DNA of 64,000 nt, taken from positions 151,094,001-151,158,000 of the forward strand of contig OX597814.1 in assembly GCA_951406725.2 (NCBI GenBank). Reading direction: 5' to 3'. The DNA comes from Octopus vulgaris (lineage: Eukaryota). Shown one piece after another: positions 11,200 to 55,860 of the stretch (positions are counted from its first letter, which is position 1; every line of letters starts with the position of its first letter). Under the pieces are notes generated by a model that had not been told where the DNA came from, did no database searches, and saw only the letters and a list, made by a program, of their open reading frames with translations. The translations under genes and the position numbers were made by a program.

Positions 11200-11941
11200 T
11201 CTGGAACAAGTCCAGCAATTTTACATCGACCCCAGTACTTGACTGGTATTTTATCGACTCCGAAAGGATGAAAGATAAAGTTAACTTCGGCGAGATTTGA
11301 ACTCAGAACGTAAAGTACTGGAATATATAATGGTTTCAATTTTGGCACAAGGGCAGCATTTAGAGGGAAATGACTAGTCGATTACATCGACCCCAGTGTT
11401 CAGCTGGTACTTACTTTATCGACCCCGGAAGAATGAAAGGCAAAGTCGACCTCGGCAGAATTTAAACTCAGAATGTAAAGACAGACGAAATGCCGCCAAG
11501 TACGCCAAATCCGACATGCTTACGAGTCTACCAGCTCGCTGCCATGTGCAAGAAGAAATACCGCTAAGCATTTTAACGCACTAACGATTTTGTCGGGTCA
11601 CCACTTTCTTTAAAATGATTGTTTCTAACTTTGATACAATGCCAGCAACTTGGAGGGAAGTGGGTAATTGATTATATCGACCCAGTACTTATTTAAATGG
11701 GTCTTTATTTTATCGATCTGGAAAGGACGAAAGGCGAAGTTGACCCCGGCAAAATTTGAACTATGACCTAATATCCTTTTCTACTCTAGGCACAAGGCCC
11801 GAAAATCTTTGAGGAAGGGATCAGTCGATTAGATCGACTCTAGTACGCAAATGGTACTTAATTTATCGACCCCGAAAGGATGAAAGGCAATATCGAACTC
11901 GGCGGAATGTGAACTCAGAACATAGAGACAGACGAAATACC
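11200..11941 (-). mobile_element. Cluster of about four older SINE family 1 copies
   Basis: Repeated atcgacccc(a)gt...ttttatcgac..cgaaaggatgaaaggcaaagtcgacc..ggcggaatttgaactcagaa with older tails (ttttggcacaagg; ctctaggcacaagg). Confidence 0.8.
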
Positions 11942-14900
11942 AATTTCTTTATTGCCCACAGGGGGCCAAACACAGAAATGGACAAAACAACTGATTGGGA
12001 TCAGTAATACGTTATGATTTTACATAAAATATGAATATAAAAATTATTTTTTAAAAATCTAATGAAATTAAAAATACAGAGACAACACAGATGTAGCGAT
12101 GATCAGGCCAAACTCCGACCCCAAAAGCCCTGATCTATCGCTGGTATCTTTTTTTTGTTCTTTTATATCCTATTCACACGGTTCCTTGCACGCACAACAC
12201 TCGTGCAACATGCTTCCATCTCTTTCTAAACATACTCTCCTACAGACACCTCTTCTCCAGCCACACCTTCCTTTTCAAATGAAAAGTAAAATCTGATCTT
12301 AAATCGTGGCCGGAGATAAAGTTGCCTGTCTTAATTCCTTTTATCCTAGTCTTCCATACTGACTCTTCTGCTATTGCTACAACCGTGAGAAAACAATTCT
12401 TTCCTTCGTTTGTTAAAACTTCCGGTGAGTCAATTTTTATAATTGACTCAGCCGACAGCCGTACTCTTCCTTCGCCGGACAACAGGTGTTCAGCATAAGC
12501 TCACATTTCAGATATCTCCGGACACTGGACAATAGCGTGAGGGACGGTTTCCCTGTCTCCCCCACATCTTGGATAGGTCGGAAACTGACGCTTACCATGT
12601 CTTGCGTGCTTATTCCAAACGGGCAAGGCACCTCTGTAACATTACCTGGTCAAGGACTTTTGGAAGTTGTCCAACGTACTCAACCCGAATGTACAATGGA
12701 ACAGGCTGTCCAGTTGAATATACCCGAGACCTAGAGTCGCCCCCAGGCCATCGTCACATTCAGACTCTACCAACTCACTATATAAAATTCGTGTAGAGCC
12801 CACATCGCTGGCGTTGCCCGAGCCCGGAATAGCAGGATGGCCTTACGGCACTCTTTATGTAATTCACTCCACCTCCGTCTACGAAAACACCAGGCTTCCT
12901 GTTCGCAATAACTTTTGATCTCGGGGGAACATTTGTCTGGCCAGCGGAGACCACACCCGTTCACCATCCAGGAGAATCCAGAGATGCCTCAACATCCACG
13001 CATACCTGCGCATCATTAACAAAGGCATCCTTAAACCTCCCTTTAACGGCTTTTGACAACAGACAGAGCGTTTCACAAGTGGCGACCTGCCCTTCCACAA
13101 AAAGCGAAAGAGCTGTCTCTCCAACCTGATCAACCATGAATCCGGACAGGGCACGACGGTCAGGCGGTAGGTAATGACCGATGCGATAAACACAGTGGCC
13201 ACTTCTGCCCTCCCTTTCAGGGATAGCCACCGACAATACTAGGTCTTGACTACTTCAGCCACCCTGCTCGAAACCTCCGTCCAGTTCTTCTCTATCCGGA
13301 GGCCTGGTCCAAACCAGACTCCCAGCAAGTTAATCGGTCCCTCTGTCCAGCGCCGAACAACGCTGTCTGTCAACCCAGGTGCCGAGCTGCAAGCCGACCG
13401 ACTTTTCCCGGCTAATTCGTGCTCCTGCCACCGTCTCGTAAACCTCAATAGCCTTACCCACTTCACGTAGGTGTACTGCTGTGGTTACGCTTATAGTGGT
13501 ACCGTTCGCGTACGCTGTAACAAACTACTCTAAACCTGGTTCTCTCGGGATGTCACTCAACCTTCGCAGTAGAGACTCAAGAGTCACCACATACAAAAGT
13601 GATGAGAGCTGACATCCTTGACGAACCGAGCGCCTGATGCAGAACGGCTTCGAAAGGAAGCCGTAACCCGAACTATCGAGTCAATGTTGCGATACACCTG
13701 AGGAAGTCAAGGCCTAGGCCGAACCGTACAAGCACAGTCGCCAGGTATCGATGGTCAACCCTATCAAAAGCTTTAGACTGGTCCAAATGTACCAATGCCC
13801 GACCTTTGCCAGATTTATCACCAACCCTCTCTATGGTATAGCGAGTAAGGTGGAGATTATCCTGAATGGTTCTGCCTGGGATAGCACATGCCTGTGCCTC
13901 CCCGACTATACCATTCGCGACATGCGCCAACCTTTTTGCAAAGACCTAGGCCAAAATCTTCACTTCTGCGTTTAACAGAGTGATGGGCTTAAAGTTATCT
14001 AAAACGTTCCCCCTGTCCGGGTCCTTTCTGACCAACGTCACTACTTACCGGCACACAGATATGAGGATAAACCCATTCTGTTGCTAGTTCGCGTACATGT
14101 CAGCCAGTAGGTGCCCGAACAAGTCTGGCTTACATTTATACAGCTCGTACGGAAGACCATCAAGTCCCGGTGACTTCACCTCCGCAGGTGCGATCGGCCT
14201 TTCACAAGACTTCGCATCCGACCCCCGAACAGCTGGGCGGAGTACTCCCGAAAGGCCTCACACATTTCCTCAGGCTGGTTTACCAAATCACCATTTAGAT
14301 TCATCAAAGACCGAATAGTAAAATTGTTTCCTTATCGAGCTTCCACCACAGCGGCCTTGATACCTTCACTTCCCATCGCATGTGTTGGGCTTCAAGATGC
14401 TAGTTCAATTCCAGTCTCTTCACCTTCACTTGGTCCGCATTACCAGTCCTCCAGGCGTCTTCTACTTCCTTTACTAGACCATCACTTATTCTACGTCCCT
14501 TCTTAGCTAAACTTATGCTAAACCTAATAGACTCATATTCTATGGCTCTTTTTAGGGCGTACCCCCATTTGTTATTAATGATTGTACTTGTCAATGCCCT
14601 CTGTATTAACATCTCGATCCGCTTTCTGTACTCCTCAATCGACTAAAGGGACGTATTGAGTTTCCAGTTGCCAGATTCCTGTCTATGCAACTTATCTACT
14701 GTCAGCTAATAGGTAACCATCTTGTGATCACTGTAGCTGACTAGATAAAAGTGTGGACACTTAGCTATGGACTTATCTGTTTTTATAATTAAAGCCCTAT
14801 CTAGATATGTTCTAGAAGACCCGTCACTATTTGACCACGTCCACTGTGGAGTGTTCGGGTGTTCCAACCTATATGGGTCTGTCAGCTAAAAGTGACTTAG

Positions 14901-16178
14901 CAGATCCCGTAAGCCAGGCTTACATTTTCTATTCATGTTCGAGCAAACACAATCTGTGTGCGCGTCACAGATTGTGTTTAAAGTCTCCTATCAGTACTAG
15001 TGAATGCGACGTGGCCAGGAACTTGTCCAGGCCACGAAAATATTCACTTTGCGAGCCCATAACGTTGGGTGCATAAATTGCAACCAGCCTGATTTTCTTG
15101 CTACCACTGAATATCAGGTCGAGAACGACCAACCTGCCTTCCGGATTAGAAAAAAAACAACTTTTTCTCGGCTACCCGGTTTCTTTTTAGTAGGATCAAC
15201 ACATCAACCCACCTCCCGCCTGACTCGGAGAAACTTATTTCTCATATCTGTTCAGGATGGGGAGCAGATTTCTTGGCTCATTCACCCAGTTTCCCGTTGC
15301 AACAATCACATCCAATTTTCTTGACCTGCTGTCATTTAGAAAGCGCCCATGCTTCCAGCTATACATCAGGCCACGAACATTTACACAACCAGTGTGAATA
15401 GACATTACTTACATATTTATTCTGGGGTGTCCTGTGGAGAGCGCCTCTCTACCTTTTCTTGACATAGGGTCGGAGGTGGCAAGTCTTGAAAAATGAATGG
15501 ATTAAAATCCAATCTCATCATCCACATCGACTTTCTTTCTATACGTGTTAAGTAATACATTGAGTCTTTTTATCCATTTCGTAGAACTCGTAGTTCTTAT
15601 ATTTATCAGAAAGTTCTGCAATCCAAGCGGCTGATTTTTTCGCTTTTATTTCTCTCATTAAATCTTCATTTTTGCTGTATAACGCGACTATCCTTCTGTC
15701 TTCTGCTTCCTTCCTTACAATTTTAGTTTGTCTTCGCAGTTTCTTTTTGTCTTAATTCGACCTGTTTTTGTTGATTTGAGCTTTCCATTTTTCTCTTGTT
15801 GTTAGTTGCTTTCTTTTCTTCTGTTTCTTTCTCTCTCCTCTTCCTCACCATCGGATTCTTCCTCGCCGTCTCTATAGTGTTTTTATATGGCCCAGCTGGC
15901 CACACTGGAAACATCGGGGCTTACGCACCTCGACGAATACGTTAAGGAATTCTTCCCCAATTTCTATTTTCTCCGGTAACTTTTCTAAAATTGACTGTTC
16001 TGCTTGTATTAGGAGGTGAACCGTTTGACCGGTTCAATAAGCCTTTTCTGTGACGGTAGCCTGCAGGATGAAGGGCAAAGTCGACCTCGGCGGAATTTGA
16101 ACTCAGAACGTAACGGCAGACGAAATACGGCTACGCATTTCGCCCGGCGTGCTGACGTTTCTGACAGCTCGCCACCTT
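11942..16178 (-). mobile_element. Near full-length, frameshifted L1/Tx1-like LINE with a SINE-type 5' head
   Basis: APE start GCVNVRGL (about 15400), RT motifs PGRTIQDN, LDQSKAFDRVDH and GCQLSSLLY, then RLERQLFRFLWKG...GGL and a C-terminal zinc knuckle (about 12550). Lys/Glu-rich ORF1 remnant at 15720-15915. 16065-16178 is SINE family 1 head sequence. Confidence 0.85.
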
Positions 16179-19139: not shown

Positions 19140-19888
19140 CTTTCAAATTTTGATACAAGGCCAATAAGCTCGGGGGTGGGAGTAAGTCGACTTCATCGAC
19201 CCCGGTGCTAGCTCGTACCTATTTTATCAACTCCGAACGGATGAAAGGCAAAGTCGACCACGGTGGAAGTTAAACTCAGAACGTAAGGTCAAACGAAATA
19301 CCTATTTCTTTACTACCCACAAGGGGCTAAGCACAGAGGGGACAAACAAGGACGGACAAACAGATTAAGTCGATTATATCGGCCCCAGTGCGTATCTGGT
19401 ACTTAATTTATCGACACCGAAAGGATGAAAGGCAAAGTCGACCTCGGCGGAATTTGAACTAAGAACGTAACGGCAGACGAAATACCTATTTCTTTACTAC
19501 CCACCAGGGGCTAAAGATAGGGAACAAACAAGGACAGACAAACGGATTAAGTCGATTATATCGACCCCAGCGCGTAGTTGGTACTTATTTATCGACCCCG
19601 AAAGGATGAAAGGCAAAGTCGACCTCACCGGAATTTGAACTCAGAACGTAACGGCAGACGAAATACCTATTTCTTTACTACCCACAAGGGACTAAACACA
19701 TAGGAGACGAACAAGGATTAAGTCGATTACATCGATTCCAGTGCGTAACTCGTACTTAATTTATCGCCCCCGAAAGGATGAAAGGCAAAGTCGACCTCGG
19801 CGGAATTTGAACTCAGAACGTAACGGTAGACGAAATACCGCGAAGCATTTATCCCGTCGTGCTAACGATTCTGCTAGCTCGCTGGCTT
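19140..19888 (-). mobile_element. SINE family 1 array: one head, three young units and the body of an older SINE
   Basis: Units 19303-19486, 19487-19667 and 19668-19839; each tail is joined to the next body at cgaaatacc|tatttctttactacccac. A single A-box head lies at 19840-19888 and an older-tail body at 19140-19302. Confidence 0.9.
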
Positions 19889-28284: not shown

Positions 28285-30386
28285 CGATTAAATAATTAAA
28301 GTTAGAAAAATTAGAAGAAAAGTTTTTTAAAAGAATATTTCTGTAGTAGTGTTCAGATATAAGTAGCATTCTGCCTTTCTCTGACTCCCTTGTTTGCACT
28401 TGTGTGTTCGAGGTCGTTTTGAGTTCTTGGTAGGATAGGTGAAGAATAATGAGGCTGATGTGGAGAGGGGGTGGGGAAATCTGGGAATGCCTTAATGGTC
28501 GTATTTTGAATGGTCAGTGGCTGACAGTAGTCGCAGTTCAATTCAGGAATTGTTTATGGAATTTGCGTAGGCGTTATACTGAAAGACATTAATGACAAGG
28601 GGTGGAAGGTGGAGAAGTAGAAGAAGAAGAAGATGACGATGTTGATGATGATGATGATGATGAAGAAGAAGAAGAAGAAGAAGAAGAAGGAGAAGGAGAA
28701 GATGGTGGTGATGATGGTGGTGATGATGATGATGACGATGATGATGATAATGATGATGATGAAGAAGAAGAGGAAGAAGAAGAAGAAGAAAAAACAGAGA
28801 AGGGAGAATATGAATGGGTGTAAGTATAGCTTTGATGGGGCTGATTAGTAATGGATTCTATGGAGTGTAATATTTGTGTGTGTATATATTTCTTTTATTC
28901 TAAAGTTGAGGTATATTAATTGTTTGTCGTAGACCCGTTAAGAAGTGGCTTGTATTTTGTAATAAAGAGATTTTCTTTACTTAATTCGTTGTCTCGAGGT
29001 TGTATCGTCCCTAAATTGGTAGAGGGGAAAATTCTGAAGTTTGGTGTTTTTTTGTTGGCGCAAGTATCTATGTGTTGGCTAAAAGCTATTTTTCTGTTTT
29101 GGGGAATTTTTATCTGGGATCCGTGCAGGGCCATTAGTTTACGCAAACCATTTTTTGTTTGGCCTATGTACTGCTCTTGACACCCGGAGCAGGTTAGTGA
29201 GTATATTAGGTTCTCCGAAGCACATGTGAAGTTGCTTTTCACTGTAAACCGTTGTCCCTGTTTGAAGGAGAACTCTGATCCCTCAATTAGATAGTCGCAT
29301 ATCCCGCAATTGGGATAAAAAATGTGGAAGACCCAATTGCGGGATATGCGACTATCTAATTGAGGGATCAGAGTTCTCCTTCAAACAGGGACAACGGTTT
29401 ACAGTGAAAAGCAACTTCACATGTGCTTCGGAGAACCTAATATACTCACTAACCTGCTCCGGGTGTCAAGAGCAGTACATAGGCCAAACAAAAAATGGTT
29501 TGCGTAAACGAATGGCCCTGCACAGATCCCAGATAAAAATTCCCCAAAACAGAAAAATAGCTTTTAGCCAACACATAGATACTTGCGCCAACAAAAAACA
29601 CCAAACTTCAGAATTTTCCCCTCTACCAATTTAGGGACGATACAACCTCGAGACAACGAATTAAGTAAAGAAAATCTCTTTATTACAAAATACAAGCCAC
29701 TTCTTAACGGGTCTACGACAAACAATTAATATACCTCAACTTTAGAATAAAAGAAATATATACACACACAAATATTACACTCCATAGAATCCATTACTAA
29801 TCAGCCCCATCAAAGCTATACTTACACCCATTCATATTCTCCCTTCTCTGTTTTTTCTTCTTCTTCTTCTTCCTCTTCTTCTTCATCATCATTATCATCA
29901 TCATCGTCATCATCATCATCACCACCATCATCACCACCATCTTCTTCTTCTTCTTCTTCTTCTTCTTCTTCTTCTTCTTCTTCTTCTTCTTCTTCTTCTT
30001 CTTCTTCATCTTCATCATCATCATCATCAACATCGTCATCTTCTACTTCTCCACCTTCCACCCCTTAACCTTGTCACTAATGTCTTTCAGTATAACGCCT
30101 ACGCAAATTCCATAAACAATTCCTGAATTGAACTGCGACTACTGTCAGCCACTGACCATTCAAAATACGACCATTAAGGCATTCCCAGATTTCCCCCACC
30201 CCCTCTCCACATCAGCCTCATTATTCTTCACCTATCCTACCAAGAACTCAAAACGACCTCGAACACACAAGTGCAAACAAGGGAGTCAGAGAAAGGCAGA
30301 ATGCTACTTATATCTGAACACTACTACAGAAATATTCTTTTAAAAAAACTTTTCTTCTAATTTTTCTAAATTTAATTATTTAATCG

Positions 30387-32725: not shown

Positions 32726-33305
32726 GAAGAATTTTTTTTAAATATATCTCATTATTAAGCTAGTGTTGGAAATATAAATTAACATAAAATGCTGTTAGAA
32801 GGTTACAGTTTAGACCAACAACAAAAGAGGGGATTTTTATCATAGAACTAGAGTCGTTTCAGGTGGGTCGGTATCACAAGGGTTAAGTTAGAAATTGACT
32901 AATTCATAATTTCATATTGATATAGCTTTCAATATTCTCGTGCGCGATGAAATCTGTAGCGTTAATTAATTAATTAACTAGACACTGAAGAATTAAAATC
33001 AGACAGAGACGAATGTGACAGCAATTTTTGATATTAAATTATAAAACCCAATCAGATAAACTTTTCAGTAATTTCAAGAGTGTGTTATAGGAATAAAATT
33101 TACATTAAAGAATAGTTTGGTTAGTTATTAAATCACTAGAAAGGACTGTTCAGGCAAGTGGTGTTCAAAACCGAGATCGAATACTATCCTCTTACAAGAT
33201 TAACTGATATCTATCATAAAAATAAATACGTATGCGTATTTGTGTGTGTGTGTTTGCACGTGAACACATGTTGAAGGAGCACAGTATGTATGAAAGGTTA
33301 AGAAG

Positions 33306-33534
33306 GCGGCGAGCTGGCAGAAACGTTAGCACGCCGGGCGAAATGCTTAGCGGTATTTCGTCTGCCATTACGTTGTGAGTTCAAATTCCGCCGAGGTCGA
33401 CTTTGCCTTTCATCCTTTCGGGGTCGATAAATTAAGTACCAGTTACGCACTGGGGTCGATGTAATCGACTTAATACCTATGTTTGTCCTTGTTTGTCCCC
33501 TCTGTGTTTAGCCCCTTGTGGGTAATAAAGAAAT
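33306..33534 (+). mobile_element. Full-length young tRNA-derived SINE (family 1, tail B) with 11-bp TSD
   Basis: A-box-like tggcagaaacgtt, B-box gagttcaaattcc, tail gccccttgtgggtaataaagaaat. TSD aggttaagaag at 33295-33305 and 33535-33545. Confidence 0.9.
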
Positions 33535-42529: not shown

Positions 42530-44470
42530 GTTTCAGCCAAGTGGCTGCGGTAGTGCTGTAGCACCACCATGACTTTCCCTCCTTATGCTGTGCTCCCAGC
42601 ACGTTCCTTGCATGGCTCTTCTCCGCCACCTGATGTAGTCGAATCAAGACTTTCGATGGCACATCTGGTGTATAAGAGAATTTGACATCGTGCCCTCAAC
42701 TGTGTCTCATTTCGAGCCATCGGTTCGTCTGGTATCGTGGATAGGAAAGTGTCGAGTTTTGTTTTGAAGACCTCTACATCCATGTCTTGTAGGTCTCTCA
42801 ATTGTTTTAGCAGGGCATTAAAGAGCTGAGGTCCTCTGAAACCGAGGCTGTTGCAGTACCTTGTTCTTACGTGAGATGCAGTGGACGGTACCCTTGGTAC
42901 TATGCAGTGGCGACCTCTGCGGGCATTCGTGTAGTACTTGATGACAAAGTTTGGTACCAGTCCTTCCAGTATTTTCCATATGTAAATTATTACATATCTT
43001 TCCCGCCTGCGCTCCGGGGAGTAGAGACTTAGTGCCTTCAGTCGCTCCCTGTAGTTCATCTGCTGGACTGTAGCGATCTTCTTTGTATAGTGGCGCTGAA
43101 TTGCCTCGAGTTCTGCTGTCAGCTTGACACTGTGTGGTGACCACAACTGAGCGCAATAGTCTAGGCGGCTCAGAACAAATGTCTTCCATAGAGTCAACAT
43201 GACATTTTGATCCCTTGTTCTGAATGTCTTAAGTATCCACCCTGCCAGTTGTCTGCACTTTGCTGTCAACTTGACAATGTGCATGTGAAATGATGCATCA
43301 CTACACACTCTGATGCCCAGGTCTCTCACTGTTTGTGATTCTGGGATTGCAGTACCTCCAAGTCCTGTGTATGCCAATTGGGGGACACTTGTGGCCTTGT
43401 AGCGCAGTACTTGAAATTTGTTATGATTGAACCGCATATCATTTTGCTCTGCCCACTTGTATGTTGCATTTAGGTCATTCTGCAGGCTTATGACATCATC
43501 AGGATTCTTTATTGCCTGAGATAATTTTGTGTCATCAGCGTAGCTACTGTGACAATGGCTGTCCGAGTGACCGTGGGCATGTCCAGAAGTGCTACTATGA
43601 ACAGTAGTTGCCCCAGGACAGTTTCTTGTGGAACACCGCTCAATATTTGCGTTTCCCTAGATAATTCCCCATTGGCTGCAACTGTCTGACTTCTACCATC
43701 CAGGAAGTCATGCAGTCACTCTCCTAATTTACCAGCTATGCCAAGGTTTCGCAGCTTGTGATATGTCATGATCAATTTTGTCAAAGGCTTTTGCAAAGTC
43801 GAGATATATCACATCAACATTTGAATGGTCAAGTAGCTGCCCCAGGACCCAGTCATAATGCTGCAAGAGCTGCGTGAGGCAGCTTCTACCTGGACGGAAA
43901 CCATGCTGGGTCTCATTCAGCAAGTCATTTTCTTCTAGGAATGCAATCAGCCTCCTTCTGACAATTCGTTCCATGACTTTGCTAATATGTGAAGTCAGAG
44001 AGATGGGCCTGTAGTTCCCAGCCTCTGCTCTGCTTCCACCTTTGTGGATAGGACATATGATGCCTTCCTTTAGTTTTTTGGGAAGTTTAACACTTGTAAG
44101 GAATCTCTGGAAGAGTATCCGGGGTGGTCCCGCTAATTCTTGTTTACATGACTTTAGGAGGACAGCTGGGAAACCATCGGGGCCAGTTGCCGAATTTGAG
44201 CTCATTTCGTTTATGGCCACTATTATATGTCAATGTAGGTAATTGATGCAGTCTTTTTCTGCTGAGTGATATTGTCAAAGAAATCAGCTGGGTTCTTTAT
44301 CTGCATGTGACTCAGAGGAGAAGTGAAAACACTCTTGAATTGTGCACTGAGCACTTCACTTATCCATTTGGGGTCCGCAGTCAGTGAGCCATTAGGCAGG
44401 AATAGGGGTCCTATTTTGTACTGTGCCGTGGCAATCTCCTTTACAAATCTATAGAAAGCCTTGGGGTTTG
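42530..44470 (-). mobile_element. CR1-group LINE, 5'-truncated and frameshifted
   Basis: ATGPDG, NYRPISLTS, QHGFRPGRSC, YLDFAKAFDKIDH, YADDTK and IPDEP. ORF pieces 43729-44220 and 42583-43437. Confidence 0.92.
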
Positions 44471-49350: not shown

Positions 49351-51140
49351 GATTGATTGATTGATTGATTGATTCCAGTTCCAGCCTATGAGCTGTGGCC
49401 ATGCTGGGGCACCGCCATTTGGTGTTGCTACTTGGTTTCACTTCATGGAGGCTTTCTAGCAACTGCTATTTGGTGCATGAGAGAGTTCGATGCAGCTGCC
49501 CTCATCTGCCCCTCCTGCCGTGAAGTTGGTTCATCTGGGACACCTGACAGGAAGAGATCCAGCTTCATTTTAAAGACATCTGTATCCACCCCATGCAGGT
49601 CTCTCAGGTTCTTCGGGAGGATATTGAAGAGCTGTGGGCCTCGGAAGCCCAGGCTATCACAGAATCTTGTCCTACATCTTGATGGCAGGTTTGGAGTCCT
49701 AGGCACCACGCAGTGGCGCCCAGTTCTGGCATTTGTGTAACTCTCGATGCCAAAGTTCAGGACACTTCCCTCCAGGATCTTCCAGATGTATATTATGGCA
49801 TATCTTTCCCGCCTACGCTCCAGGGAGTATAATTTTAATCTCTTGAGTCTTTCCCAGTAGCTTACATTCTGCATAGAGGCTATCTTCTTTGTGTAGCTTC
49901 GTTGGATCGCCTCAAGTTCTGTGATCAACTTGACACTGGATGATGACCATAGCTGAGAGCAATAGTCAAAGTGGCTTAGGACAAGTGTCTTCCAGAGGAC
50001 CATCATGGTTTCTTGTTCTCTTGTTCTAAAGGTTCTAAGAATCCAGCCAGCCAGCCGTCTACATTTCACTGTCAGTTTAGCAACATGTACATGAAAGGTC
50101 GCGTCATCACTCATGTGAATACCCAGGTCACGCACTGATTGTGCCTCTGGGATTGCAATCCCTCCGGGTCCAGTGTGTTCATTGGGTATTGCATTCAGTT
50201 TTGCATGCTGATAGTATAAATCTTGAAACTTTTCAGCATTGAACTGCATGCTATTCTTTTCAGCCCACTTGTATATTTCGTCCAGCTCACATTGCAGGTT
50301 TTTAGTGTCCTCAGGGTTCTGTATTGCCAGTGAAACTTTTGTATCATCTGCATAACTTGTGATCGTGGATCTCTGCGTGGCTGAGGGCATGTCTGAGAGG
50401 GCCATTATGAACAGTAGTGGTCCCAAAACAGTGCCCTGTGGAACACCACTCATTATTTGCGTGTTAATGGAAGTGGCCCCATTGGCTACTACCACCTGAC
50501 TTCTATTCTTCAGAAAGTCGTGAAGCCATTCTCCTAGTTTTCCAACTATGCCAAGATCACGCAGCCTGTGACATATCATTCCGTGATCGACTTTATCGAA
50601 GGCCTTTGCGAAGTCGAGATATATGACTTCCACATTTGAGTGGTTGAGCAGTTGTTTCAGCACCCAGTCATAGTGCTGCAGGAGCTGAGTTAAGCAGCTT
50701 CTTCCTGGTCGGAAACCATGTTGGGTGTCAGGCAGCAAGTCATTTTCTTCAAGGAAGGTGATTAGTTTCCTTCTGACTATTCGTTCCATGACCTTGCTGA
50801 TGTGTGAGGTCAGAGAGATAGGTCTGTAGTTCTTTGCCTCCGCTCTGCTACCTCCTTTATGAATAGGGCATATTTTACCTTCCTTCAGTCCCCTTGGAAG
50901 TTTGCCAGCTGCAAGGAAGCTCTGAAAGAGGGACTGCAGTGGTCTTGCTAAGACTCTCTTACATACTTTTAGGAGGATTGCCGGGAATCCATCGGGGCCA
51001 GTAGCTGAGTCTATTTTCATTTCATCTATAGCCTTTATTACATCGTCTTCCTTTATCTCGATGTAACTTATCGTCGCCGCCTCTGATTCTATATCTGCAG
51101 TGGTAAAGAAGTCAGTTGGATTGCTGATTTGGAAATGCCC
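49351..51140 (-). mobile_element. Young 5'-truncated CR1-group LINE with an uninterrupted 525-aa RT ORF (49443-51020) and (AATC)n tail
   Basis: SGVPQGTVLGPLLF, YADDTK, YLDFAKAFDKVDH and VPDEP. (GATT)n at 49351-49374. Confidence 0.95.
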
Positions 51141-51154
51141 AAGGGGTGGAGTGA

Positions 51155-51965
<811 letters not shown>

Positions 51966-52719: not shown

Positions 52720-55700
52720 TCATCGGCCACGTCAGAGATTTTGATTTTGATTTCACTTGCCTCAACAGGTCTTCGTAAGTAAATGAAGGGTACTCATAAG
52801 TAGGCTGGTTATACACCACTAACATAGGCCACGAGTTATGGTCTCACTTGGCTTGTCGGGTCTTCTCAAGCACAGCATAGCTCCAAAGGTCTCGGTCACT
52901 AGTCATTGCCTCGGTGAGGCCCAATGTTCGAAGGTCGTGTTTCAGCACATCATCCAAGTTCTTCATGAATCTACCTTAACTGCTAGGGTGTGACACTTTT
53001 TCACACAGCTGTCCTCATCCATTTGCAAAACATGACCATACCAGCGCAGTCGTCTCTCTTGCACATCACACCTGGTGCTTCTAAGTCCAACTTTTCTCTC
53101 GGGGCGCTTACACTCTGTCGTGTATGCACACTGACATTTTACACATCCAGTGGAGCATACTTGCTTCATTCCTTGCAAGCTTACGCATGTCCTCAGCAGT
53201 CACGGCCCATGTTTCACTGCCATATAGCATGGCTCTTCGTACACATGCGTCATACAATCTACCTTTTACTCTGAGCGAGAGGCCCTTTGTCACCAGCAGA
53301 GGTAGAAGCTCTCTAAACTTTGCCCTGGCTATTCTTATTCTAGCAGCTACACTGTCAGAGCATCCACCCCAGTTACTGACTTGGTCACCTAAATAACAGA
53401 AGCTATCAACTATTTGTAGTTTTTTTCTCTGGAATGTGACAGAAGCTGTTCTCTGCACATTTTCAGTGTTTATTGCTCCTGAGCATTTGCCACATACAAA
53501 AACTATATTCCCAGTAAGCCTTCCTTCGATATTGCTGCACCTCTTATGTGTACATAGCTTACACTGGGTACATCTTATGGAGTTTCTACCTATGCCTTTT
53601 CTACAGATCGAGCAGGGCCATCTACCCGAGGGGAATTGTGGTTTGTCTGCCTTCCTACTCACTAAGACTTTGGGTTTTGCTAGGTTGACTCTAAAGTCCT
53701 TTGATTCTAATCCTTGCTTCCACACCTGAAACTTTTCCTCTAGTTCTAGTAGTGACTCAGCAATTAGAGCAAGGCCATCAGTATAGAGGAGCTCCCAGGG
53801 GCATCTTGTCTTGAATTCCTTTGTTATTGCCTGTAAAACTATGATGAATAAGAGAGGGCTGAGGACTGATCCTTGATGGACCCCTACCTCTACTTGGATT
53901 TCTTCACTGTACTCATTGCTAAACCTCACCTTACTGACAGCATCATTGTACATGGCTTGCACAGCTCTCACTAACCATTCATCTATCCCTAGTTTCCTCA
54001 TTGACCACCAGATAAGGGATCGAGGACCCTGTCAAAGGCTTTCTCCATGTCAACGAAAGCCAGGTACAAAGGTTTATGTTTGGCTAGGTATTTCTCCTGA
54101 AGCTGTCTTACCAGAAATATAGCATTAGTGGTGCTTTTCCCTGGCACGAACCCACACTGCATCTCATCTAGACTGACTCTCTCCCTAATTAGTTGGGCTA
54201 TGACCATCTCCATGGCCTTCATTACCTGATCCAACAACTTGATACCTCAGTAATTATTTGTATCTAAAGCGTCACCTTTACCTTTGTAGCAGTTGACTAT
54301 GGTGCTTCTACACCAGTCATTGAGTATGACTCTTTCATGTATCACCTGGTTGACTATATGGATGACTAGGCTATAGCAGACACAGCCAAATATTTTGAGC
54401 ATCTCTGCAGTGATTCCTGATGGGCCGGGGGCTTTCCCTGTCTTCATACCCTTAATTGCTTTATCAACCAAGGTACTGTCAATTCGGATAGCTGGTCCCT
54501 CTGTTGGGTCGGCATTCGGCAGACTCTCTTTCTCCCATTCATTCTCTTTATTTAGCAACCTTTCATAGTGGCGTCTCCAAAGCTCTCTCTTTGCAGCCTC
54601 GTTTAATGCAAGCAAACCATCATCCATGCGAACACATTTCTCTCCTACGACATCACGATTCTCGCTCACACACTGTCTGGCAAAACACGAATTACCTCAA
54701 GTCTTTGGTCCTCACGGCGCAGAGCATTGGCAGTTTTTTTCTTATCTGCTTCCCCTCTGGCTAAATTCCCTGCTACCACCATTCTTATAGTCCTTCCGAG
54801 CCTGTTTCTTTTCCCTAATTACCCTGTCAACAATATTGTTCCACCACCACGTAACTTTGGGTCGAGATCTGGTCAGTGGCCCTCAGCAGGTTATCCCGTA
54901 GAAACCTCCAGTTGTCTTCCCCATCATGTGATGCTACATCCCCCTCTATTCCGTCAAAAACTTCGAATAATACGTTTCTAAATCTCTGTCCATTCGCAGG
55001 ATCTTTAAGCTTCCAGACCCTTCTCCTCCATGCTGGTCGTCTTCTGGGCATCCATTTAGACCCGATCCTGAAGTCGCTAACTACCAGTCTATGTTGTGGG
55101 TACATTCTTCACCTGGGAAGGTTTTGGCATTTATAAGGAGCCATTTTTCCCTTTTTCTGGCGAGGATGTAGTCAATTTGACTAGTGTGTCTACCAGATCG
55201 GTAGGTGACTAGGTGACCGGCAGGTTTCCTGAAGCTAGTATTGCAAACCATAAGATCATTTGCATTGCAGAAATCCAGCAGCCTGGTTCCCTCCTCATTG
55301 CGGGAACCAAAACTATAGCCTCCATGTACGCCATGAAAGTTCCCTGCATGTTGTCCATGTCCATTGAAGTCACCAGCCACAAAGAGAAGGTGCCTGTCAT
55401 TCGCCAACGAGGTAATCAGCAAGAGGGTGTCATAAAATCGGTCTTTCTGTCCATCAGGTACCCCCGGCTGAGGGGAATAGGCCGAGATAATGGTTGCTAA
55501 CCCATGAGGTAGCACTAATCTAATCTTAAGTATTCTATTGCAGACTCTGACTACCTCGATTACCTTATCAACCCATTTCTCCGCACAAAGTATGCCCACG
55601 CCCCCGACCCCGTCAGTGATCCCTGCCCAGAAAATCTTGTACCTATGTTCTTTGCCTGTGAAAAACTTAACAGAACCTCCTCTCCACCTACTTCTTGGAT

Positions 55701-55860
55701 GCAGCACAGATATACACGTCTCCCTTCAAACATCTCAACAATCTCACCAGATCTACCTTTCAGTGTGCCCACGTCGAGTGTGCCAGCCCTGAGGGTTTGG
55801 GAGGTGTGTGCCTGTGAGACCCTGGGATGGGGGACAGCAGCGTCATGTACCTGTAAAGAA
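52720..55860 (-). mobile_element. Near full-length RTE-clade LINE, frameshifted, with a PHD-like finger inside the RT
   Basis: APE motifs GTLDVGTLKG, CCIQE, AGDFNGH and SQIDYIL; KAPGPSG; FVDMEKAFDRV; GVHQGSVLSPLLF; MLYGSETW; RLRWYGHV. Confidence 0.93.

What the first reader, a model, noticed from the sequence alone, without database searches (positions are those of the whole stretch)
11942..16178. Tx1-like LINE with a SINE head and SINE-shared tail, inserted at a fixed site inside a SINE: candidate self-targeting LINE/SINE system
Seen, on the minus strand: (1) the LINE's last ~50 nt (ttgtccatttctgtgtttggccccctgtgggcaataaagaaatt) match tail B of the young SINE (ttgtcccctctgtgtttagccccttgtgggtaataaagaaat, 33493-33534). 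(2) The LINE 3' end abuts GGTATTTCGTC of an older SINE body, which is the position between the SINE's A and B boxes. (3) The LINE 5' end (16065-16178) is a SINE head plus partial core fused to unique sequence. The part duplicated on both sides differs at roughly 10 of 65 nt, and the 5' copy has the young-subfamily signature cgtaacggcagacg, so it is not a simple TSD. Established: SINEs borrow LINE machinery through shared 3' tails, and Tx1-group elements are often target-specific (tRNA arrays, U2 snRNA, microsatellites). Inference: this LINE uses an abundant SINE as its landing pad, rebuilds the head on insertion, and mobilises a SINE subfamily that multiplies its own target.
Basis: partly seen in the sequence, partly recalled or inferred. 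Interest (0 to 1): 0.78.

Follow-up and report, generated by a model that had tools for sequence, protein, structure and literature searches.

The report
LINE and SINE target the SINE
A family of jumping genes (LINEs) in this genome, likely an octopus, sits almost always at one exact base inside a very common short repeat (SINE), one branch of that SINE has piled into the same base of its own family thousands of times, and the LINE's enzyme likely drives both, so the passenger would keep making the landing pads for its own carrier.

Summary
Target specificity is real and genome-wide. 66 of 68 distinct LINE 3' ends abut SINE position 50 (GGTATTTCGTCTG). A sister LINE with the same kind of tail does so in 0 of 29. 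Full-length copies carry a plain 13-nt target-site duplication.

The SINE inserts into itself. 16,280 of 51,481 exact tails of one variant are followed by the site, against 396 of 11,786 for the variant that matches the LINE's own tail. The incoming SINE mostly replaces the target's head, and 22 of 30 LINE 5' ends have a young SINE stacked in front (background 12 of 42).

That this LINE mobilises the SINE is inferred; the tail is shared by a whole LINE clade. No intact copy was seen.

Closest known: Tx1-Mar/SINEU-3 and Tx1L/Tx1D, which target DNA transposons. The scan noted a two-copy LINE-in-SINE case in another genome. Verdict: new variant of a known kind.

The parts
16065..16178 (-). Young-subfamily SINE head and body to position 114 (G45/C50 variant); not part of the LINE proper
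   Evidence: 93% to SINE 33303-33416; absent at this place from 29 of 29 other copies
16065..16068 (-). TCCT microhomology at the SINE/LINE junction
   Evidence: same four bases at SINE 111-114 and about 864 nt into full-length LINE copies
11942..16064 (-). 5'-short, decayed Tx1-like LINE; lacks the first ~860 nt (5' UTR and ORF1 start)
   Evidence: 84-92% to other copies; six-frame translation
15740..16064 (-). Remnant of ORF1 with CCHC knuckle (KPRCFQCGQLGHIK)
   Evidence: zf-CCHC E=0.0055, below the Pfam cut-off, in copy L062
12174..15405 (-). ORF2 remnant (APE endonuclease, reverse transcriptase, zf-RVT), broken by many stops and frameshifts
   Evidence: Pfam on stop-free stretches of sister copies: RVT_1 2e-20, zf-RVT 2.5e-6, Exo_endo_phos 2.4e-4
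11942..11986 (-). LINE 3' tail shared with SINE tail B and sister LINEs; contains AATAAA; no poly(A)
11929..11941 (-). Target site GGTATTTCGTCTG (SINE 50-62), 3' copy of the 13-nt TSD; equals the 3' arm of a predicted SINE hairpin
11775..11941 (-). Older SINE body and its own (A-type) tail: the target
   Evidence: 87% to the young SINE over positions 50-168; tail read
19178..19888 (-). SINE-in-SINE array: head, three body-tail-B units each followed by the site, then an old body
33303..33534 (+). Solo young SINE (tail B) at a non-SINE GGT site, with an 11-nt TSD; used as reference copy

Best explanation
This is a decayed copy of a Tx1-like LINE lineage that inserted at one fixed base (SINE position 49/50) of an abundant SINE with a 13-nt target-site duplication, and its endonuclease/reverse transcriptase likely also carried one SINE subfamily into the same base of other SINE copies. 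Shown: the fixed site, the TSD, the SINE-in-SINE arrays, young heads on arrays that end in old bodies, and the excess of young SINEs in front of LINE 5' ends. Inferred: ORF2p nicks the bottom strand at position 50 and the top strand 13 nt downstream, then primes reverse transcription at the tail. An incoming full-length SINE cDNA would anneal to the target's own head, so the product is head-(body-tail)n-old body with no doubled head. Each insertion regenerates the site, so SINEs and further LINEs stack there. The window's 5' fusion likely arose by a ~1 kb deletion at TCCT from a SINE-TSD-LINE stack, or by a LINE-to-SINE template switch at the same bases. SINE copies at unrelated sites likely come from off-target GGT cuts and from non-specific sister LINEs that share the tail.
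For: 3' ends: 40 of 40 hits and 28 of 30 (2 overlap) give 66 of 68 distinct ends. 64 are fully readable, one is cut by an N gap after 6 nt, and one has lost the junction but is followed by SINE body. Control: sister family 0 of 29 readable ends at the site, 2 at SINE position 17 (Fisher 1e-22). The flank is target DNA: it varies with the target subfamily, including three CGTATTTCG flanks, and L332 shares an old-type allele in both TSD copies. 5' ends: 29 of 30 show the 13-nt TSD, 8 behind a head and 22 behind SINE tail B. Site-specific copies form one clade (10 rows, 99/97), sister to the non-specific family. SINE: 16,280 of 51,481 exact TAG tails are followed by GGTATTTCG and 32,126 by GGT; 19 of 53 tail-like ends in 590 kb are at the site. 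Off-target GGT insertions show TSDs of about 11-16 nt in 8 of 30 GG-flank rows, many of the other rows being SINEs that sit before a LINE or SINE. Array heads are young (divergence 0.085, n=15, against 0.172 for 64 old solos and 0.068 for 68 young solos; G45+C50 in 2 of 15, 0 of 64, 18 of 68). LINE copies and SINE units have the same age (5.1% and 6.0% divergence). Tandem LINE-TSD-LINE occurs in L277 and L278.
Against: The tail does not single out this LINE as carrier, and the SINE variant with the LINE's own CAATAAA tail is at the site in only 396 of 11,786 cases. Most 5'-short copies have no SINE head and no TSD: 12 in the first subfamily (11 extended 8-10 kb upstream without finding the rest) and 9 of 14 in the second. 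I attribute this to later deletions and insertions, because 9 of 20 copies picked by their ORF1 region lack the 3' end, but no empty site was seen. 5 of 16 neighbouring array units are nearly identical (0.013-0.039), which points to duplication or template re-use, not separate insertions. The endonuclease was not tested, and no intact copy was seen among 10 near-full copies translated.
Confidence: 0.75

Rival explanations
1. Targeting is set mainly by the RNA, not the enzyme. Source copies sitting at the site are read through into the downstream GGUAUUUCG, which pairs with the nicked DNA and fixes where reverse transcription starts, so targeting is inherited with the flank. Not exclusive of the best explanation.
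For: Two SINE tail variants differ tenfold in site use (31.6% against 3.4%). The targeted variant has AGTAAA where the other has AATAAA. 62% of TAG tails are followed by GGT even off-target. The reference SINE has no T4 run, and the first one lies 71 nt into the LINE 5' UTR. Co-transcription with the target is reported to strengthen targeting in other LINEs (PMC4494074, section 20).
Against: Off-target TSDs mostly carry GGT in both copies, so the G's are genomic (one exception, L173). LINE flanks copy the target's own allele (CGTATTTCG in three copies). Specificity follows the ORF2 tree.
Confidence: 0.2
2. SINE arrays arise at the DNA level (unequal crossover or slippage between SINE copies), and the LINE's site preference is a separate matter.
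For: 5 of 16 neighbouring units are nearly identical. One run of ten matches at about 185-bp spacing lies at G000:C1:4676258-4677963. SINE-derived satellites in reptiles are ascribed to unequal recombination (PMC10702118, passages).
Against: The junction is the very base the LINE uses. 11 of 16 neighbouring units differ by 0.077-0.146, like unrelated copies. Many arrays end in an older body with another tail. Crossover between SINEs cannot join a tail end to position 50.
Confidence: 0.08
3. The downstream SINE body travels with the LINE RNA (3' transduction from a source copy in a SINE), and many copies insert at arbitrary sites.
For: 21 5'-short copies lack an upstream head.
Against: None of 12 such copies has a TSD around LINE plus body. 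Downstream bodies belong to several subfamilies and tails, while LINE copies are star-like. Full-length copies have head and TSD.
Confidence: 0.05
4. One reading: the LINE begins with a SINE head plus core and has no simple TSD.
For: The window, L322 (SINE 4-88) and L323 (SINE 1-54) show head-to-LINE fusions.
Against: The three fusions are at different SINE and LINE positions. 0 of 30 true 5' ends have this form, and SINE units in front of LINEs are as diverse as random ones (0.093 against 0.098).
Confidence: 0.02

Closest known systems
Tx1-Mar LINEs with SINEU-3 in crocodilians (PMC4494074; abstract, passages, sections 15 and 20 read)
   Same: Tx1 LINE and its SINE share a fixed site inside another transposon; tandem SINE insertions sandwich a TSD of about 16 nt; the link is inferred from the shared target.
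   Different: The target there is a Mariner DNA transposon that the LINE does not mobilise. Here the target is the SINE family itself, in sense orientation, so insertions rebuild head and site.
Tx1L in Tx1D, Xenopus (as cited in PMC4494074; the original, Christensen et al. 2000, seen only as a reference)
   Same: APE-type LINE with endonuclease-based specificity for a site in another element.
   Different: The target is a non-autonomous piggyBac; no self-inserting SINE is described in the passages seen.
Keno, Kibi, Koshi (Tx1 clade; passages in PMC4494074)
   Same: Tx1 relatives with different fixed targets. Here a relative ends in an (ATCT)n array (L153; one copy).
   Different: The targets are U2 genes and microsatellites, not a retroposed passenger.
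R2/R1 5' joining by homology and co-transcription with the target (co-transcription from PMC4494074 section 20; homologous 5' joining recalled)
   Same: Upstream target sequence is replaced by the incoming cDNA's copy.
   Different: The target is rDNA; R2 has a restriction-like endonuclease.
SINE-derived satellites of squamates (PMC10702118, passages)
   Same: Head-to-tail repeats of part of a SINE.
   Different: Ascribed to recombination; no LINE-defined junction in the passages seen.

Membership tests
APE-type non-LTR retrotransposon (L1/Tx1 group) | ORF2 with APE endonuclease, RT and C-terminal zinc finger; ORF1 with CCHC knuckle | tested here: met
   Pfam on stop-free stretches of sister copies (the EN and CCHC hits are below the curated cut-offs); best PDB match is human L1 ORF2p, 72 bits
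Tx1 clade | RT phylogeny groups with curated Tx1 families | tested here: inconclusive
   36% identity and 182 bits to an alligator protein named TX1 149 kDa against 72 bits to L1. The tree holds no curated Repbase or Dfam references, and the cephalopod rows form their own clade.
Target-specific Tx1 elements | More than 20% of flanks in one sequence type (criterion in PMC4494074), at a fixed base | tested here: met
   66 of 68; control 0 of 29
Target-specific Tx1 elements | Target-site duplication of defined length | tested here: met
   13 nt at 29 of 30 true 5' ends
Target-specific Tx1 elements | Endonuclease cleaves the target in vitro | not testable with these tools
   bench assay needed
LINE/SINE partners by shared 3' tail | SINE tail matches one LINE family | tested here: inconclusive
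   The tail matches three LINE groups about equally; site use depends on the SINE tail variant
tRNA-derived SINE | Head homologous to a tRNA with A and B boxes | tested here: inconclusive
   A-like (13-28) and B-like (75-87) motifs were judged from recalled consensus; ARAGORN found 0 genes and Rfam no tRNA match
LINEs with a SINE- or snRNA-derived 5' head | Head is a constant 5' part of full-length copies | tested here: not met

The most novel reading that the evidence does not exclude
A closed LINE-SINE loop with RNA-inherited targeting. One SINE subfamily lost the AATAAA of the shared tail, reads through into its own duplicated target, primes insertion into the hairpin of other SINE copies and overwrites their heads. 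SINE RNA also acts as a 5' adaptor that completes LINE integration by giving the cDNA homology to the target head, which would explain young SINEs in front of 22 of 30 LINE 5' ends.
Probability: 0.25. Interest if true: 0.85.

Novelty: new variant of a known kind. Interest (0 to 1): 0.62.

Why it matters
It gives a sequence-defined reason why a large share of one of this genome's commonest repeats sits in head-to-tail stacks, and it shows a passenger that is also the carrier's safe landing site. Sister LINEs with the same kind of tail differ in target: fixed SINE site, no evident target, and possibly (ATCT)n. Two SINE tail variants two bases apart differ tenfold in targeting. Both are ready comparisons for the open question of whether the enzyme or the RNA flank sets Tx1 specificity. 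It also warns that nested SINEs here cannot be read as random insertions when dating subfamilies.

Tried and rejected
SINE head as a constant LINE 5' end: rejected.

One master SINE-LINE co-transcript: not supported. The LINE-proximal units are as diverse as random ones, and a Mantel test against LINE distances gave residual r=0.01, P=0.45 for 18 copies (low power, star-like family).

TSD around 5'-short copies plus SINE body: none in 12.

G45/C50 head variant as immunity to insertion: rejected. Three LINEs sit in it, and it is a compensatory pair in the hairpin (30 copies, probably one event).

Rfam and ARAGORN: no tRNA or known RNA match. Tail and head folds are not stronger than shuffles (z -1.35 to -1.71).

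Sequencing runs: no RNA holder listed. laid SINE and LINE-like sequence from three related organism labels. Three contigs cross the tail/site junction with under 31 letters on one side, so they are not counted. Whether the window's own 5' junction stands in other individuals was left untested.

Literature: ten searches found no report of this system. Repbase and Dfam could not be searched, the 2015 octopus genome paper was not held, and Ohshima and Okada 1994 was seen only as a reference, so the family may already be annotated there. No supplements were read.

Scan look-ups by genome, sequence and relatives were empty.

Full report
Setting. The window is G000:C1:151094001-151158000 of a 2.8-Gb assembly. 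The nearest named protein is from Argonauta (53% identity), and SINEs are reported as the main repeats of octopuses (PMC8967140, passages). I infer an octopod host; no call names it.

The element. 11942-16064 (minus strand) is a decayed LINE with an ORF1 remnant and an ORF2 of endonuclease, RT and zf-RVT. An RT stretch from copy L063 scores 182 bits against an alligator protein named TX1 149 kDa and 72 bits against human L1 ORF2p. It is therefore Tx1-like, but clade membership was not tested against curated references. Copies are about 5% from their majority and star-like. None of 10 near-full copies translated is intact. The searches gave 352 first-look candidates for the 3' end and 123 for the 5' end, of which 40 each were scored; these are not copy numbers.

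3' ends. The query stopped 18 nt before the junction, so flanks were not selected. All 40 hits are followed by the site. A second subfamily gave 28 of 30. After removing two overlaps this is 66 of 68: 64 fully readable, one cut by an N gap, one with the junction deleted. L289 and L296 may be one duplicated event. The two exceptions are followed by GGTATAC and TGTATAA. The site occurs at 6e-5 per position in 59 evenly spaced 10-kb stretches. Downstream bodies belong to several SINE subfamilies, and three start with the CGTATTTCG allele, so the flank is target DNA. As a control, a sister family with the same kind of tail has 0 of 29 readable ends at the site (one of 30 loci lacked the tail). A further relative ends in (ATCT)n (one copy). 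The site-specific copies form one clade, sister to the non-specific family (one row dropped for short coverage).

5' ends. Other copies run on for about 860 nt and begin TGTGAGTTTGG directly after GGTATTTCGTCTG. Of 30 such ends, 29 show this 13-nt duplication; 8 follow a SINE head and 22 follow a young SINE tail (with for the two loci whose anchor was shifted). The window junction lies on a TCCT shared by both partners. Its 5' SINE part is a young variant while the 3' body is old (10 of 65 differences), as expected if a SINE-TSD-LINE stack lost about 1 kb or if RT switched from LINE to SINE RNA. L322 and L323 are similar fusions at other points, and L080 and L275 show such fusions on the 3' side, where priming cannot make them.

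The SINE. One exact tail variant (GGGTAGTAAAG) occurs 51,481 times, 16,280 times before GGTATTTCG and 32,126 times before GGT. The variant GGGCAATAAAG occurs 11,786 times, only 396 before the site. In 590 kb, 19 of 53 tail-like ends are at position 50 and 2 at position 17; five of the 53 match only the tail and may be other elements. Arrays have the form head-(body-tail)n-body, without a doubled head. In 15 arrays that end in an old body, the head is young by divergence and carries young-only alleles (pooled from all loci held, not only the evenly spaced set), so the incoming SINE mostly replaces the target's head. The duplicated 13-mer is the 3' arm of a predicted 12-bp hairpin (34-45 with 50-61), and the insertion point is the edge of its loop. 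One compensatory change and two one-sided changes keep it paired in 248 heads. Whether the hairpin matters for targeting is untested; off-target GGT sites were not examined for it.

Stacking. Young SINEs stand before 22 of 30 LINE 5' ends, against 20 of 88 position-50 sites (P=1e-6) or 12 of 42 targetable loci (P=3e-4) in the background. They are as diverse as random young SINEs and as old as the LINE, so they are not a fixed part of one transcript. Three readings remain: later insertion at the regenerated 5' site, preference of the LINE for tail/site junctions, or template jumping to SINE RNA. Old-type alleles in the LINE-proximal TSD of a few copies (L071, L265, L275, L280) and tandem LINEs (L277, L278) lean towards the first two, but the numbers are small.

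What speaks against a simple model. The tail is shared by at least three LINE groups, and the SINE variant closest to this LINE's own last bases is the poorly targeted one. Twenty-one 5'-short copies lack head and TSD. Later rearrangement is a fair explanation, since 9 of 20 copies lack the 3' end and L010 has a 5' part about 22 kb away, but it is not shown. Some neighbouring array units are nearly identical.

Comparison. Tx1 elements that target other transposons, and a SINE that shares the target and stacks there around a TSD, are described for crocodilian Tx1-Mar/SINEU-3 and Xenopus Tx1L (PMC4494074: abstract, passages, sections 15 and 20). The difference here is that the target is the passenger family itself, at very large scale, with head replacement and a tail-variant effect. 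Ten searches found no report of it, but Repbase, Dfam, the 1994 octopus SINE paper and the 2015 genome paper were not available. PMC4758252 and PMC8869645 (passages) added nothing on this system. Two unchecked scan notes from other genomes describe LINEs at fixed sites in a SINE or a sister LINE.

Verdict. Fixed-site insertion is shown (about 0.97). SINE self-insertion at the same base is shown. That this lineage's ORF2p drives both is likely (about 0.75). The SINE-headed LINE is rejected. New variant of a known kind; interest 0.62.

Noticed in passing
L038, L041, L042, L045-L048: ORF1 fragments of this LINE with no SINE in front. In L045-L048 they follow a shared sequence that starts TACTAGC..ACCCGG(C/A)GTTGC, which I recall as Helitron-like; L041 shares part of it inverted. 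Possibly a captured LINE piece amplified by another element.
   Followed up: no
L153 (G000:C15 near 55.38 Mb); tail-only hits in L237, L247, L248: A related Tx1-like LINE (about 66% identity) ends directly in an (ATCT)n array, and three short tail-like hits are followed by such arrays: a possible microsatellite-targeting family.
   Followed up: partly
L039, L059, L087, L094, L214, L218: A second recurring junction at SINE position 17 (tail followed by AGAAACGTTAGC), used by SINEs and by 2 of 29 sister LINE ends.
   Followed up: partly
L035/L062: Four 77-nt repeats of the SINE 3' part (positions 156-232) stacked before the LINE, each starting at GATATAATCG, which resembles the main site.
   Followed up: no
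L028, L289, L296: LINE copies that end in the SINE-type GTAGTAAAG tail, suggesting template switching or conversion between SINE and LINE tails.
   Followed up: no
L277-L280, L324, L329, L332: Site-specific copies with different 5' UTR/ORF1 types (about 70% identity) on nearly the same ORF2: 5' swapping within the clade.
   Followed up: partly
window 49443-51254 and 42583-44229 (minus): Two copies of another LINE; the first has a 603-aa open RT frame (RVT_1 4e-31).
   Followed up: no
window 53108-55725 (minus): Endonuclease and RT fragments of a third LINE, with a PHD/C1-like hit inside the RT region.
   Followed up: no
window 28916-29380 (minus): 154-aa frame that looks GIY-YIG-like by eye (Penelope-type, recalled); no Pfam hit.
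   Followed up: partly
G000:C1:4676258-4677963: Ten SINE tail/site junctions at about 185-bp spacing, a satellite-like array.
   Followed up: no
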